DNA of 64,000 nucleotides from Ophelia neglecta (taxonomy: Eukaryota): positions 37,076,001-37,140,000 of the forward strand of contig OZ260666.1 of assembly GCA_965285935.1 (NCBI GenBank), in the 5' to 3' direction. Shown here piece by piece: positions 52,501-64,000 of this stretch; the stretch's first letter is position 1, and the number at the start of each line of letters is the position of its first letter. The position numbers were made by a program.

Positions 52501-55500
52501 ACTGTCGCTGAAACAGTTGTTCGACCGAGGGAGGTCAGAATGGAAGTGTCTACTGCCATTGTTGGACAGCGTAGAGCTTCAAGGGTCAGCCTGCATGAAG
52601 AACAGGTTCGTCCTGAAGTTATCACATCAGGAATCGGTCCACTGGAGGTTAAAACAGACATTGCAAGGATGGAGGACTTTGAAGGAGAAGAAGTAGGGGT
52701 AGCTGATGTCAGAGATCGAAGTGGGTTCCTAGTCTTGGAACAAGCGACCACTGCACAACTTGAGACAATAACTGGTGAGCTTCTGATGGCGTCTGTTGAG
52801 AAGGCCTCAAAAGAAGATATCCCAGCCTCCATGGTTTCTGCTACCAAGGAGGTGCCAAAGCCCCAACGAGTACAGATGCAACGGGCTGAATTGCAGATTG
52901 ACAGTTGTGTTGAAGGCATTGATACCGCCCCGTCTGAGATAGTATCCCCAGAAGATGTTGCATTTGATGCTGAGAAAGCATCTGTTAAAGCTCCGAAACC
53001 AACGCGAGCCCATATTCAAGTAGAAAAGGTTATGCCCGACACCTTTGCCGAGGGTGTTGACAAAGCTAAGGAAGAAATGCTTGTACCTGAAGATATACAC
53101 TTCCGAGCTGAGCAAGCTGCTGTAAAGATCCCAAAGCAACCAACAAGAACTGTTGTCCAAGCCACCGAATTGAAACCGGAACAACTCCAAGAGGGCATAC
53201 AAGTGCCAACCGAACTGATGGCAACAGAATCAGTGGAAATGGTTGACAAAGCGACTGCTGAAAAAACAGCAAAATTGCCTTCCCAGATAAAAGAGCAAGC
53301 AACTGCCTTAAACCTAGAAACTGTCCATGGCAAACTCATTTCAAAGGAAGGAGAAAATATCCAACCTATTGAAATAACTGTTGACATTGGTACTGCTGAA
53401 GTAACAAGTCGAAAGGAAACACAAGTTACTGCTCAAGCAGAAAGAGAACCTAGTCCAGAAGAAGTTAGACAGGAACCTTTAGCTCCAAGTGGCGAATCCG
53501 TCACCCCTGCTGATATTGGAGAAGTTGAAATGGGTTCAGCAGATCTACAGCTCCCTCAACCCGCCCAAGTAGGAATACAGCAAGCAGAGGTACAACCAGA
53601 ATCCATTCAAGATGAGCTTGTTATTCAGACGGGAGAATCTATTGAGCCTACTGAAATTACAGTGGATGTTGGCAAAGCTCAAATCAAAGGTAAAAAGCCA
53701 ACAAGAGTCACAACACAAACTGAAGGACAGCTGCCAACCGAGAAATTGTCCGAAAGACTTGAGACGCAGAAAAGTGAGAATATTCTACCAGTTATCACAC
53801 CAGTGACCGATATGGAAAAGGTGCAGATTGCTGCCAGAGAAACCGTTCTCACAATGCTTCAGCAAGGGAAATTTCTTCCAGAAGAGTTAACAGAGGGTAT
53901 ACTACAACAAACTGGAGTGTCAATTAGTCCCCAGGAAATAGGACAGTTCTTGTTAGAGACAGCTAGTATTCAAGCCCGACATGAAGTCTTAATTGCACTG
54001 CAATCGGGACAACACTCGCCTGAAATGGTGGCTGAAGGTCTCATGTCACCTCAACCCGGGCAGGTCATTGAGCCAGAGGAAATTGTGCAGGCAATTATGA
54101 AGGCCACTATGCATGCCCAGCAACAAGTACAAGTAGCTCTTCAGCAAGGTCAAATGGTGCAAGAGCAAATATATGAAGGGATACAACCGGAGACAGGCCA
54201 CATTGTTGAGCCAACTGAGATACAATATCAGATTCAACAGGCGCAGGTTACTGGTAAAAAGACCACTCAAGTGAAGATTCAGCAGTCGCAGATTACACCA
54301 GAAGTTTTCTCTGAAGGGATAGAGATTCAAACGGGTAAAAAGGTGGAGCCAACCGAAATCACTGTCCAAATTGGCCAGGCTGAGGTAACACAGCAAGCAC
54401 CTTCCCAGGTGGTTCCACAGGCCACAGAGTCGAAACCTGAAACTGTGATTCATGAAGTTATTAAGCAAGTTGGTGAGACAATAACCCCATCGGAGACAAT
54501 GCTGACCGAAGTTGTCCACGTAGAAACCAAAAAACCCACAGAGACCCAAGTGGTAATCCAAAAGACTGAAATACAGCCAGAGACATTTTCTGAAGGGTTG
54601 GAAATACAACTTGGCCAAACTCTCCTTCCCAAGGAAATTCAGCTACAGATTGGACAAGCTGAAGTTCAAATGCAGAAGGAAACGAAAGTTGCACTGCAAA
54701 CCACAGAAACAAAACCTGAAACTGTAGCCCATGAGATAATTATTCAGCCAGGACAAACATTAACTCCAATGATCACTCCTGTCACTGAGCTGGAGAAAGC
54801 ACAAATCACAGCTAGAGAAACTGCACTGGCATTGATTCACCAGGGTAAATTCCTCCCAGAAGAGATAACAGAAGGAATTTTGCAACAGACTGGAATCTCA
54901 GTGAAACCGCAAGAAATAGGTCATTTCTTGATGGAGACCGCCAGTATTCAAGCTCGACATGAGGTATATGTCGCCTTAGTGTCTGGCCAGCGCACCCCAG
55001 AGATGGTCTCAGAGGGAATCCTTTCCCCAAAACTTGGCAAACCTATCCAGCCGAAAGAAATTGTTGAAGCGATCATGAAAGCGACAATATTAGCCAAGGA
55101 GCAGGTGCAAGTTGCCCTGCAGCAAGGACATTTGGTACAGGAACAGGTCACCGAAGGAATTCAAATGGCACCCAGCTACACTGTTCAGCCCAGTGAAATA
55201 GAATTGCAGATCCAAAAGGCACATGTCTCTGGGAAGGTCTCAACTGAAGTCATCCCTCAACTAGCTGAAATGAGATCTGAACTTCTAACAGAAGGCATTC
55301 ACATACAGGAAGGCCAGTCAATAGAGCCAGCTGAAATCACCGTTCAGATTGGCCAAGCAGATGTAACTTCACCTCAGCAAACCCAAGTGGCAGAGCAGAA
55401 GACTAGAATGATCCATGAAATTGTTACTGAGGAAGTGGTCATCCAAGCAGGAGAAAGCATCAAATCTCAAGAGATCACAATGCAGGTTGTAGAAGCTGAT

Positions 55501-61500: not shown

Positions 61501-64000
61501 CAAGAATTAGTTATCCAAGTGGGAGAAACAGTTAAGCCTGAAGAAATCCAGTTTGAGGTTGCTGAGGCTGGAATTGAGCTTAAGCCTGAAACCCAAACTA
61601 CCGTCCAAGAGGCAGAAATGCAACCAGAAACTGTAACTGAAGAAGTGATCATCCAAACTGGCGAAAGCGTCCAACCTCAAGAGATCACAATGCAGGTTGT
61701 AGAAGCTGATGTCACCACACCTCAGGAGGCCCAGGTAGCAGAACAGAAGGAAAGGATCAGCCCTGAGACCGTCACGGAGGAGGTTGTGATCCCGTCTGGG
61801 GAAACTATTGAACCTCAAGAAATTGAGTTCCAGGTATCAGAGGCCCAGGTAGAGGAGAAAATGACCACCGAAGTCATCACACAACAGGTGGAGCCAAGGA
61901 GGGAATCAGTCACTCAAGAAATTGTGCTTCAAACAGGTGAGAAGGTAGAACCTGAAGAAACAGTTTTTGAAATATCTACGGCTTCAATTGACGTTAAACC
62001 TGAGACTCAAATTTTAGCACAGGTTACTGAAGTCGCGCCTGAAACTGTGACGCAGGAAATAGTCATCCAGACAGGAGAATCTATTAAACCTGAGGAGATC
62101 CAGTTAGATATTTCCCAAGCTTCAGTTGAAATAAAACCAGAAACTCAGATCTCTGAACAGATAACAGAACTAAAACCAGAAACTGTTTCACAAGAATTAG
62201 TTATCCAAGTGGGAGAAACAGTTAAGCCTGAAGAAATCCAGTTTGAGGTTGCTGAGGCTGGCATTGAGCTTAAGCCTGAAACCCAAACTACCATCCAAGA
62301 GGCAGAAATGCAACCAGAAACTGTAACTGAAGAGGTGATCATCCAAACCGGCGAAAGCGTCCAACCTCAAGAGATCACAATGCAGGTTGTAGAAGCTGAT
62401 GTCACCACACCTCAGGAGGCCCAGGTAGCAGAACAAAAGGAAAGGATCAGCCCTGAGACCATCACGGAGGAGGTTGTGATCCCGTCTGGGGAGACTATTG
62501 AACCTCAAGAAATTGAGTTCCAGGTATCAGAGGCCCAGGTAGAGGAGAAAATGACCACCGAAGTCATCACACAACAGGTGGAGCCGAGGAGGGAATCAGT
62601 CACTCAAGAAATTGTGCTTCAAACAGGTGAGAAGGTAGAACCAGAGGAAACAGTTTTTGACATATCGACGGCTTCAATTGACGTTAAACCCGAGACTCAA
62701 ATTTTAGAACAGGTAACAGACATTGTCCCCGAAACTGTGACCCAGGAAATAGTTATTGAGACAGGAGAATCTATTAAACCTGAGGAAATCCAGTTAGATA
62801 TTTCCCAAGCTTCAGTTGAAATAAAACCAGAAACTCAGATCTCTGAACAGATAACAGAACTGAAACCAGAAACTGTTTCGCAAGAATTAGTTATCCAAGT
62901 GGGAGAAACAGTTAAGCCTGATGAAATCCAGTTTGAGGTTGCTGAGGCTGGCATTGAGCTTAAGCCTGAAACCCAAACTACCATCCAAGAGGCAGAAATG
63001 CAACCAGAAACTGTAACTGAAGAGGTGATCATCCAAACTGGCGAAAGCGTCCAACCTCAAGAGATCACAATGCAGGTTGTAGAAGCTGATGTCACCACAC
63101 CTCAGGAGGCCCAGGTAGCAGAACAGAAGGAAAGGATCAGCCCTGAGACCGTCACGGAGGAGGTTGTGATCCCGTCTGGGGAGACTATTGAACCTAAAGA
63201 AATTGAGTTCCAGGTATCAGAGGGACAGGTAGAGGAGAAAATGACCACCGAAGTCATCACACAACAGGTGGAGCCGAGGAGGGAATCATTCACTCAAGAA
63301 ATTGTGCTTCAAACAGGTGAGAAGGTAGAACCAGAGGAAATAGTTTTTGACATATCTACGGCTTCAATTGACGTTAAACCCGAGACTCAAATTTTAGAAC
63401 AGGTAACAGACATTGTCCCCGAAACTGTGACCCAAGAAATAGTTATTGAGACAGGAGAATCTATCAAACCTGAGGAAATCCAGTTAGATATTTCCCAAGC
63501 TTCAGTAGAAATAAAACCAGAAACTCAGATCTCTGAACAGATAACAGAACTGAAACCAGAAACCGTTTCGCAAGAATTAGTTATCCAAGTGGGAGAAACA
63601 GTTAAGCCTGATGAAATCCAGTTTGAGATTGCTGAGGCCGGCATTGAGCTTAAGCCTGAAATCCAAACTACCATCCAAGAGGCAGAAATGCAACCAGAAA
63701 CTGTAACTGAAGAGGTTATCCTCCAAACTGGCGAAAGCGTCCAACCTCAAGAGATCACAATGCAGGTTGTAGAAGCTGATGTCACCACACCTCAGGAGGC
63801 CCAGGTAGCAGAACAGAAGGAAAGGATCAGCCCTGAGACCGTCACGGAGGAGGTTGTAATACAGACTGGGGAGACTATTGAACCTCAAGAAATTGAGTTC
63901 CAGGTATCAGAGGCCCAGGTAGAGGAGAAAATGACCACCCAAGTCATCACACAACAGGTGGAGCCGAGGAGGGAATCAGTCACTCAAGAAATTGTGCTTC

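What the first reader, a model, noticed from the sequence alone, without database searches (positions are those of the whole stretch)
55465..64000. Satellite-like three-level hierarchy in a coding exon (138 -> 690 -> 1380 bp)
Seen: two variants of one sub-unit, A (IFLQIGETVKP.ETITEI) and B (IVLQTGEKVEPEE.VF.IST), occur at 690-bp steps from 55711 in the order A A A B A B A B A B B B B. A 1380-bp dimer block therefore sits between A-only and B-only blocks, and an IPSG/IQTG variant mostly co-segregates with B. I saw no indels. Inference: recent unequal exchange or gene conversion under strict frame and length selection, resembling centromeric higher-order repeat evolution; likely a length-polymorphic spring.
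Basis: partly seen in the sequence, partly recalled or inferred. Interest (0 to 1): 0.7.

Follow-up and report, generated by a model that had tools for sequence, protein, structure and literature searches.

The report
Nested repeats in titin-like spring exon
The region is the repetitive end of a giant exon of a titin-like muscle-protein gene, probably encoding an acidic, floppy spring made of 46-residue modules grouped in fives, and its third, two-unit repeat level is much weaker than it first looks.

Summary
From 55465 to the window end there are 12 full units of 690 bp plus 256 bp of a 13th. They have no indels and are in frame. Their order is A A A B A B A B A B B B B, and IPSG occurs in 5 of 7 B units and 0 of 6 A units.

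The 138→690 bp hierarchy is robust. Ungapped identity is 0.29 at unrelated lags, 0.54 at multiples of 138 and 0.94-0.96 at multiples of 690.

The 1380-bp layer is weak. All 26 strictly alternating sites lie in columns 87-324 of the unit. None of the 37 informative sites elsewhere alternates, and outside the two patches similarity simply falls with distance.

The units are mosaics: 807 of 2211 site pairs fail the four-gamete test. They are under purifying selection, with dN/dS 0.16-0.22.

The array lies in a spliced exon of at least 11.5 kb. The gene's other exons carry I-set Ig domains most similar to titin. The array is acidic, meets a published PEVK composition criterion and has no predicted fold.

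It is best read as a Sallimus/titin-type spring segment homogenised by unequal exchange and gene conversion: a new member of a known kind. Organism, orthologues, length polymorphism and assembly correctness stayed unchecked.

The parts
52466..64000 (+). Giant coding exon (at least 11,535 bp, 3844 codons), open at the window end; phase-1 acceptor
   Evidence: Open frame 52402-63999. Polypyrimidine tract plus AG ending at 52465. The preceding exon ends at 51517 before GT, one base past a codon, so the phases match.
55465..64000 (+). Array of 690-bp (230-aa) units: 12 complete plus 256 bp of a 13th; each unit is five 46-aa modules
   Evidence: Pairwise unit identity is 0.901-0.988, mean 0.944.
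55714..55782 (+). First copy of the A-state patch (unit columns 250-318, in module 2). It recurs every 690 bp and is in the A state in units 1, 2, 3, 5, 7 and 9.
   Evidence: 16 fixed A/B nucleotide differences in these 69 columns.
57784..57852 (+). First copy of the B-state patch (unit 4). The B state occurs in units 4, 6, 8, 10, 11, 12 and 13.
   Evidence: No donor was found in the other modules or upstream in the window.
59028..59035 (+). First IPSG variant (unit columns 114-121, plus column 196). Present in units 6, 8, 10, 11 and 12.
   Evidence: site pattern 000001010111, 5 sites.
53317..55464 (+). Older, diverged 46-aa-type modules in the same exon, upstream of the homogenised array
   Evidence: A module HMM built from the array hits 16 stretches before 55549 in this exon, 15 of them from 53317 on.
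48857..51517 (+). Preceding exon (phase 1 to 1), with 7 weak matches to the same module HMM; no Pfam domain
26373..32699 (+). Frame of a large upstream exon: Ig, long acidic repeat region, Ig. The splice sites of this exon were not mapped.
   Evidence: I-set domains at residues about 208-300 and 2000-2089 of the frame; translation; PDB best hit is titin.
15625..16512 (+). Frame holding two I-set Ig domains of the same gene
   Evidence: Pfam I-set E = 3e-44. PDB best hits are titin, with the alignments shown at roughly 35-40% identity by eye.

Best explanation
This is the homogenised, repetitive part of a giant exon of a titin-like (Sallimus / I-band-titin type) gene in a non-human animal genome. 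It most likely encodes an acidic, intrinsically disordered, PEVK-like elastic segment.

The segment is built from 46-residue modules. Five diverged modules form a 230-residue super-repeat, and that super-repeat has been amplified in register at least 12.4 times.

The copies are kept alike by unequal exchange and short-tract gene conversion between units, under purifying selection on the protein. This leaves a mosaic in which neighbouring units share blocks of variants.

The apparent third level (1380 bp) is one two-state segment of 238 bp. Its core is a 69-bp patch with 16 fixed differences, and its states alternate over units 3-10. The most likely origin is a short amplification of an A-B junction dimer. 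Its signal survives only where the two versions are too divergent, or too constrained, to be converted into each other.

Shown here: the anatomy, the mosaic structure, the selection signal, the splice context and the composition. Inferred: muscle expression, spring function, the order of events, and the idea that the patch resists conversion.
For: Anatomy:
- Lag identities are 0.294, 0.542 and 0.94-0.96 for background, multiples of 138 and multiples of 690.
- There are five 46-aa modules per unit.
- The units have no indels.

Coding status:
- The frame is open for 3866 codons.
- AG/GT boundaries have matching phase 1.
- dN/dS is 0.22 for the whole unit and 0.16 outside the patches.

Gene family:
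- I-set Ig domains occur in 9 plus-strand frames upstream of the array exon.
- Titin is the best PDB sequence hit in all 3 Ig-bearing stretches queried.
- Large exons of the form Ig - long acidic repeat - Ig, and Ig-less multi-kb exons, match the exon table of Drosophila D-Titin/sls. There exon 17 is Ig43(C)-PEVK-1-Ig44 and PEVK-2 lies in multi-kb exons (PMC2185597, passages).

Spring:
- P+E+V+K exceeds 40% in 260 of 260 250-aa windows of the array. That is the operational PEVK criterion of PMC12063666 (passages).
- Net charge is -0.17 per residue, and the sequence falls on the 'unfolded' side of the charge-hydropathy boundary (0.448 against 0.473).
- AlphaFold2 gives mean pLDDT 29.8 with 0 of 230 residues at 50 or above.
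- Deleting or adding PEVK exons changes Sls and sarcomere length in flies (PMC12063666).

Exchange:
- 807 of 2211 site pairs show four gametes, and Rm = 10.
- Variants form contiguous blocks: units 1-3, 5-7, 8-10 and 11-12.

Third level:
- 26 of 26 alternating sites lie inside columns 87-324.
- Synonymous difference in the patch is 0.45, against 0.11 outside.
Against: - No orthologue, expression or protein data. No Fn3 domain, kinase, Z-repeat or PPAK-motif family was among the Pfam matches.
- The low AlphaFold2 confidence came from a shallow alignment of 19 rows, 15 of them 89-100% identical to the query, so it does not prove disorder.
- dN/dS of 0.16-0.22, and five module types that all stay exactly 46 residues long at 33-61% identity, show more sequence and length constraint than a pure entropic spring needs.
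- The dimer-amplification origin is not shown. Outside the patches there is no lag-2 signal. The A/B order has an ordinary number of runs, and the alternating stretch is only p = 0.04.
- Units 5-7 share a block (columns 490-528) across A, B, A, which a simple dimer duplication does not predict.
Confidence: 0.65

Rival explanations
1. Assembly or haplotype mosaic. The true alleles carry more uniform arrays, for example A-type on one haplotype and B-type on the other. The assembler then switched between them unit by unit, producing the A/B alternation.
For: The A/B order has 8 runs, and half of all 1716 random orders have at least as many. The alternation is confined to one 238-bp segment, as a chain of heterozygous bubbles would be. 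The array is 94% self-identical over more than 8.5 kb, which is hard to assemble from short reads.
Against: There are 42 unit-specific singleton columns, and more than two block states outside the patch (units 1-3, 4, 5-7, 8-10, 11-12). These argue for position-specific copies resolved by accurate reads. There are no frame errors in 3866 codons. IPSG/B linkage is incomplete in a structured way (units 4 and 13). No read data were available, so this is not tested.
Confidence: 0.15
2. A genuine three-level higher-order repeat. A 1380-bp A-B dimer is the current unit of amplification, as in satellite higher-order repeats, flanked by older A-only and B-only monomeric zones.
For: Even multiples of 690 give higher identity than odd ones: 0.963, 0.954 and 0.948 against 0.954, 0.938 and 0.939. 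For units 4-10 the nearest relative lies at lag 2 or 4 in 7 of 7 cases. Units 5 and 7 differ at only 8 of 690 sites.
Against: All of that signal comes from columns 87-324. Outside the patches lag 1 (16.9 differences) is closer than lag 2 (19.8), and unit 6 is closest to units 5 and 7 (7 and 9 differences) rather than unit 8 (20). There are only 3-4 dimers, and the alternating stretch has p = 0.04.
Confidence: 0.15
3. The 46-residue modules are ligand-binding or ruler modules rather than a passive spring. This would resemble nebulin simple repeats or titin Z-repeats. The five-module super-repeat, and perhaps the A/B pair, would match a periodic partner such as a filament.
For: Module length is exactly 46 residues in all 5 types despite 33-61% identity. 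There is purifying selection. An unrelated array in the same gene also has a 46-residue period. In nebulin, 35-40-residue modules form 7-module super-repeats, and a triplicated block encodes two super-repeats per copy (PMC7109182, passages).
Against: No predicted secondary structure in the unit. The composition is rich in beta-branched residues, proline and glutamate, with net charge -0.17. There are no nebulin, Z-repeat or other curated family matches above noise. Upstream diverged modules vary in length. No partner is known.
Confidence: 0.1

Closest known systems
PEVK regions of invertebrate I-band titin (Drosophila Sallimus / D-Titin)
   Same: Ig I-set domains flank long P/E/V-rich acidic sequence within single multi-kb exons. 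There are also Ig-less multi-kb spring exons, and Ig domains split between exons (PMC2185597). The array meets the composition criterion of >40% P+E+V+K (PMC12063666). In flies, spring length set by these exons scales sarcomere length.
   Different: K is largely replaced by Q, T and I: P+E+V+K is 43.5% here, against 52-58% reported for D-Titin. The array is a strict 46→230-residue hierarchy at 94% DNA identity. I saw no such hierarchy described in the passages I read. Orthology is untested.
Vertebrate titin PEVK (PPAK modules and poly-E segments)
   Same: A disordered elastic segment between Ig domains, built of short repeated modules. That human PEVK modules are 26-28 residues long and include a triplicated block of exons is recalled, not checked here.
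   Different: No PPAK-motif family appears among the Pfam hits. Here one giant exon replaces many small ones. The modules are 46 residues long and strongly acidic throughout.
Nebulin simple repeat → super-repeat → triplicate region
   Same: A three-level hierarchy in a giant muscle protein. Modules of 35-40 residues form 7-module super-repeats, and an 8-exon block repeated 3 times encodes 6 super-repeats in total. That block shows copy-number variation (PMC7109182).
   Different: Nebulin modules are helical actin-binding units spread over many exons. Here there is no predicted helix, the array is one exon, and the third level is confined to 238 bp of each unit.
Spidroin ensemble repeats
   Same: Single long coding exons hold small repeats nested in larger units. 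Units are strongly homogenised (average 93.5% protein identity), which is attributed to unequal crossing-over and gene conversion. [quoted passage not shown]
   Different: A secreted silk with a different composition. In spidroins the alternating elements are introns, not a coding patch.
Centromeric alpha-satellite higher-order repeats
   Same: Diverged monomers are nested in near-identical multimers that are homogenised locally. The usual figures, monomers 20-40% apart and higher-order copies 95-100% alike, are recalled.
   Different: This array is coding, in frame and under purifying selection, and only about 8.5 kb of it is seen. The next level up is not a whole-unit periodicity.

Membership tests
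Titin / Sallimus-type giant Ig-domain muscle protein | Many I-set Ig domains, most similar to titin among known structures | tested here: met
   I-set hits fall in frames 9471, 11212, 14363, 15625, 17267, 20702, 25953, 26373 and 39555. Titin is the top PDB hit for 3 of 3 Ig-bearing stretches queried. Identity is only about 35-40% in the alignments shown.
Titin / Sallimus-type giant Ig-domain muscle protein | PEVK-rich elastic region (>40% P+E+V+K in 250-residue windows, the criterion of PMC12063666) | tested here: met
   260 of 260 windows inside the array and 265 of 360 in the whole exon meet it. The criterion was read.
Titin / Sallimus-type giant Ig-domain muscle protein | Fn3 super-repeats, kinase domain, Z-repeats | tested here: inconclusive
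   None was found in the 31 stretches scanned with Pfam. The gene runs off the window, and I-band titins of Ecdysozoa lack the A-band features.
Titin / Sallimus-type giant Ig-domain muscle protein | Orthology to a named titin gene; expression in muscle; position in the sarcomere | not testable with these tools
There were no expression data.
Vertebrate PEVK (PPAK-motif) modules | Match to the curated PPAK-motif family | tested here: not met
   No such family appears among the Pfam matches up to E = 10 for the array, or up to 0.1 for the other exons.
Higher-order tandem repeat (satellite-like) | Diverged monomers nested in near-identical multimers | tested here: met
   Identity is 0.542 at multiples of 138 bp and 0.94-0.96 at multiples of 690 bp.
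Higher-order tandem repeat (satellite-like) | The next level (1380 bp) is periodic over the whole unit | tested here: not met
   26 of 26 alternating sites lie in columns 87-324 and 0 of 37 informative sites elsewhere alternate. Outside the patches lag 1 is closer than lag 2.
Intrinsically disordered entropic spring | Biased composition, high net charge, no stable fold | tested here: inconclusive
   Composition and charge fit. AlphaFold2 mean pLDDT is 29.8, but from a shallow alignment. Extensibility was not measured.
Nebulin-type ruler repeats | Helical modules of fixed length that bind a periodic filament | tested here: inconclusive
   The fixed 46-residue length is met. No helices are predicted and no nebulin family match was found. 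Binding is not testable.

The most novel reading that the evidence does not exclude
The 46-residue modules may not be a featureless spring. They may be length-constrained binding or register-setting modules. In that case the old, unconverted A/B patch in module 2 would be kept as two functional versions whose alternation gives the protein a 460-residue periodicity, that is, a coding array whose higher-order structure is maintained by selection. A related reading is that the 23%-divergent patch acts as a built-in barrier to gene conversion and so shapes how the array evolves.
Probability: 0.1. Interest if true: 0.6.

Novelty: new member of a known kind. Interest (0 to 1): 0.3.

Why it matters
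If the array is real and length-variable, each 230-residue unit would add about 80 nm of contour length. That uses 0.35 nm per residue, the value quoted in PMC12063666. The 2845 residues seen here would give about 1 µm, so copy number could tune passive muscle elasticity and sarcomere length, as PEVK exon length does in flies.

The array is also a clean small case for studying concerted evolution inside a coding sequence. Local homogenisation, an old patch that escapes it and purifying selection can all be read from one sequence. It does not open a new kind of system: nested, homogenised coding repeats are known in titin, nebulin and spidroins.

Tried and rejected
- Donor for the A/B patch. 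Neither state matches the homologous part of the other four modules. At the 16 diagnostic sites the other modules carry A:B states of 4:7, 8:4, 7:5 and 5:4. BLASTN of both patches against window 1-55464 found only matches of 10-18 nt. Out-of-register conversion from sequence within the window is rejected.

- Homology between the two 46-residue arrays of the gene. hhalign gives probability 0.4%, so this is rejected.

- ESM Atlas. The 690-aa piece of the array scored 0.78 to an unnamed bacterial cluster, below the useful range. The 125-aa helical segment gave no usable hit.

- Rfam. No family reached gathering score in the window.

- Pfam on the array. Only sub-threshold matches, apart from UreE_C at 24.5 bits (cut-off 23), summed from 3 weak stretches of the acidic repeat. 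I take this for noise.

- Pfam on 10 further frames, 8 on the minus strand and 2 on the plus strand, chosen as possible intron or transposon ORFs to hint at the organism. Nine gave nothing and one was another Ig exon.

- Foldseek of the helical-segment model against the PDB. 0 matches with E <= 0.001.

- Alignment of shifted 230-aa windows, meant to give AlphaFold2 module-to-module covariation. MAFFT aligned them in true register instead, so the alignment stayed shallow.

- Human origin. A recalled Alu 5' motif has 0 matches at up to 3 mismatches, and the Ig domains are only about 35-40% identical to human titin. I do not take the contig for human.

- Literature searches. (PEVT, TTN-1) found nothing relevant. 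In one search, none of the 13 listed papers combined 'titin' with 'higher-order repeat'.

- One row (exon 48857) was computed in the wrong frame. It is disregarded and was recomputed.
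Full report
**Observation**

The window has no N and a G+C content of about 0.32-0.47. A single open frame runs from 52402 to the window end, 3866 codons.

Ungapped self-comparison of 55465-64000 gives these identities:
- 0.294 (sd 0.029, max 0.367) at 1369 in-frame lags that are not multiples of 138;
- 0.542 (0.527-0.562) at the 24 multiples of 138 that are not multiples of 690;
- 0.954, 0.963, 0.938, 0.954, 0.939, 0.948, 0.939 and 0.941 at 690, 1380, ... 5520.

The high-identity register begins between about 55415 and 55465. 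Cut at 55465, the region gives 12 units of exactly 690 bp plus 256 bp of a 13th. There are no indels and no stops.

The unit order is A A A B A B A B A B B B B, with 'IFLQ' of unit 1 starting at 55711. IPSG is present in units 6, 8, 10, 11 and 12, which is 5 of 7 B units and 0 of 6 A units (exact p = 0.016).

Each 230-residue unit consists of five 46-residue modules that share 15-28 of 46 residues.

**How strong each level is**

The 138→690 level is far beyond chance. The 12 units are 90.1-98.8% identical in DNA, with a mean of 94.4%.

The 1380-bp level needs qualification.
- Of 690 columns, 112 vary, 70 are parsimony-informative and 42 are singletons.
- Sixteen fixed A/B differences sit in columns 250-318.
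- All 26 sites that alternate strictly across units 5-10 lie in columns 87-324, a segment that holds 33 of the 70 informative sites. None of the other 37 informative sites alternates.
- With the two patches removed (612 columns), mean differences are 16.9, 19.8, 24.8 and 24.2 at lags 1-4. Similarity simply decays with distance. Unit 6 is then nearest to units 5 and 7 (7 and 9 differences), not to unit 8 (20).
- The remaining informative sites form contiguous blocks: units 1-3, 5-7, 8-10 and 11-12, plus one pattern shared by unit 4 with units 8-12.
- An alternating stretch of 8 is reached by 70 of 1716 orders of 6 A and 7 B. The number of runs is ordinary (p = 0.5). The three-zone form is met by 6 of 1716 orders, but it was defined after the fact.

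**Exchange and selection**

Among 67 biallelic informative sites, 807 of 2211 pairs show all four gametes, and the Hudson-Kaplan minimum is 10 events. The units are mosaics, as expected from gene conversion or unequal exchange. Recurrent mutation could add a little.

Nei-Gojobori estimates over all 66 unit pairs give dN/dS of 0.22 for the whole unit, 0.16 outside the patches and 0.40 in the A/B patch. Synonymous difference between units 5 and 6 in the patch is 0.45, against 0.11 outside the patches. The A/B split is therefore several times older than the homogenisation of the rest of the unit.

I found no donor for either patch. The other four modules are no closer to one state than to the other, and the upstream 55 kb holds nothing beyond matches of 10-18 nt.

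**What the gene is**

The exon begins at 52466, after a pyrimidine tract and AG, in phase 1. The preceding exon is 48857-51517, with AG and GT boundaries and phase 1 at both ends, so the junction codon is completed correctly.

Upstream plus-strand frames carry I-set Ig domains. Their starts are 9471, 11212, 14363, 15625, 17267, 20702, 25953, 26373 and 39555. Some domains are split between exons, and some large frames read Ig - long acidic sequence - Ig.

PDB sequence searches put titin first for all 3 Ig-bearing stretches tried. Identity is about 35-40% in the alignments shown, so this is family-level similarity, not orthology to a particular human domain.

This architecture matches the published exon table of Drosophila D-Titin/sls. 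There one 5.4-kb exon encodes Ig43(C)-PEVK-1-Ig44, and PEVK-2 fills exons of up to 7.7 kb (PMC2185597, passages).

I searched exon by exon. I did not build or search a joined, spliced model.

I do not take the contig for human: it has no Alu motif and only distant similarity to human titin.

The remaining collections hold only bacteria, archaea, phages and plasmids, so I did not use them. Orthologues and conservation therefore stayed unchecked.

**What the array probably does**

The array is 21.4% E, 12.8% Q, 12.3% T, 11.8% V, 10.5% I and 6.2% P. Net charge is -0.17 per residue. It lies on the 'unfolded' side of the charge-hydropathy line (0.448 against 0.473).

P+E+V+K exceeds 40% in 260 of 260 windows of 250 residues. 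That is the criterion one recent comparative study used to call PEVK regions. The same study showed in flies that removing or adding PEVK exons shortens or lengthens Sls and the sarcomere (PMC12063666, passages).

AlphaFold2 on one unit gave mean pLDDT 29.8 and no residue at 50 or above. The alignment had 19 rows, mostly near-identical, so this is consistent with disorder but not proof.

Pfam finds no PPAK, Z-repeat, nebulin or other credible family in the array.

At 0.35 nm per residue (the value quoted), the 2845 residues seen would extend to about 1.0 µm, and each unit to about 80 nm. This is an inference.

Two features are more constrained than a pure entropic spring requires: purifying selection, and five module types that are all exactly 46 residues long. 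They keep a binding or ruler function alive as a minority reading.

**Most likely history (inferred)**

- A five-module block was amplified in register.
- Neighbouring copies keep exchanging short tracts, which gives the block pattern.
- Two old versions of a 238-bp segment persist.
- An A-B junction dimer was probably duplicated a few times, giving the alternation.
- Later conversion erased the dimer signal everywhere except in the segment whose versions differ at 16 of 69 core positions. The cause could be that such divergence hinders heteroduplex formation, or that both versions are kept by selection.
- Units 5-7 share a block across A, B, A, so the history was not a simple dimer duplication.
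- An assembly or haplotype mosaic cannot be excluded without reads.

**Comparison with known systems**

Nested, homogenised coding repeats are well documented:
- Nebulin has module → 7-module super-repeat → triplicated 8-exon block, with copy-number variation (PMC7109182, passages).
- Spidroins have ensemble repeats homogenised by unequal crossing-over and conversion, including alternating elements (PMC9779670, passages).
- Titin and Sallimus have PEVK regions.

C. elegans TTN-1 PEVT repeats, crayfish I-connectin repeats, the human titin PEVK exon triplication and alpha-satellite figures are recalled only. My searches for the first found nothing.

In one search, a search combining 'higher-order repeat', 'titin', 'concerted evolution', 'gene conversion' and 'exon' listed 13 papers, and none held both 'titin' and 'higher-order repeat'. 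That is weak evidence that this particular description is not in print. Supplements were closed.

**Verdict**

This is a real, well-described repeat architecture in a titin-like spring exon. The two-level hierarchy and the evidence for exchange are solid. The third level is a local two-state patch, not a satellite-like dimer repeat. It is a new member of a known kind, of modest interest.

Noticed in passing
window 27930-30551 (+), in the frame 26373-32699: A second array in the same gene also has a 138-bp (46-residue) period, about 19 modules. Lag-138 identity is 0.754, and TRF also reports a 414-bp period. Modules 10-14 are almost identical at the protein level. The module family is unrelated to that of the finding (hhalign probability 0.4%). 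Weak partial OPA3 Pfam matches repeat with the modules and look spurious. Why two unrelated arrays share a 46-residue period is unexplained.
   Followed up: partly
window 53794-54303 and 54772-55281 (+): An older 978-bp duplication inside the same exon, with 108 of 170 residues identical. Its first 120 or so residues are predicted helical, with pLDDT about 70-83 from only two sequences, unlike the array unit. It has no PDB fold match (0 with E <= 0.001) and no Atlas hit. It may be a small folded or binding element embedded in the spring.
   Followed up: partly
window 45257-47299 (+): An Ig-less frame of 680 residues (E 20%, V 11%, T 10%, K 9%) that contains an internal duplication and ends in an E/V/K-rich tail. 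41 of 44 windows exceed 40% P+E+V+K. It is probably another spring exon of the gene. Its splice sites were not mapped.
   Followed up: partly
window 55465-64000, all five module types: All five module types are exactly 46 residues long and align without gaps at 33-61% identity. The diverged modules upstream vary by a few residues. The length constraint is unexplained.
   Followed up: no
window 3464-3739, 3984-4414, 4455-4517: Tandem repeats in the region upstream of the first Ig-matching frame at 9471: AT-rich arrays of 89/101 bp and 152 bp, and a perfect (GCG)21 microsatellite.
   Followed up: no
window 55767-63906 (-): A regular series of minus-strand open frames of 109-129 codons recurs with the 690-bp period. 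They are most simply a by-product of the repeat and its codon bias. They were not examined further.
   Followed up: no
window 9471-9887, 11212-11583, 14363-14668, 25953-26330 (+): Small frames each holding only part of an I-set domain: profile positions 1-37, 1-55, 10-90 and 25-90. So Ig domains are split by introns, and two first halves may be alternative exons.
   Followed up: no
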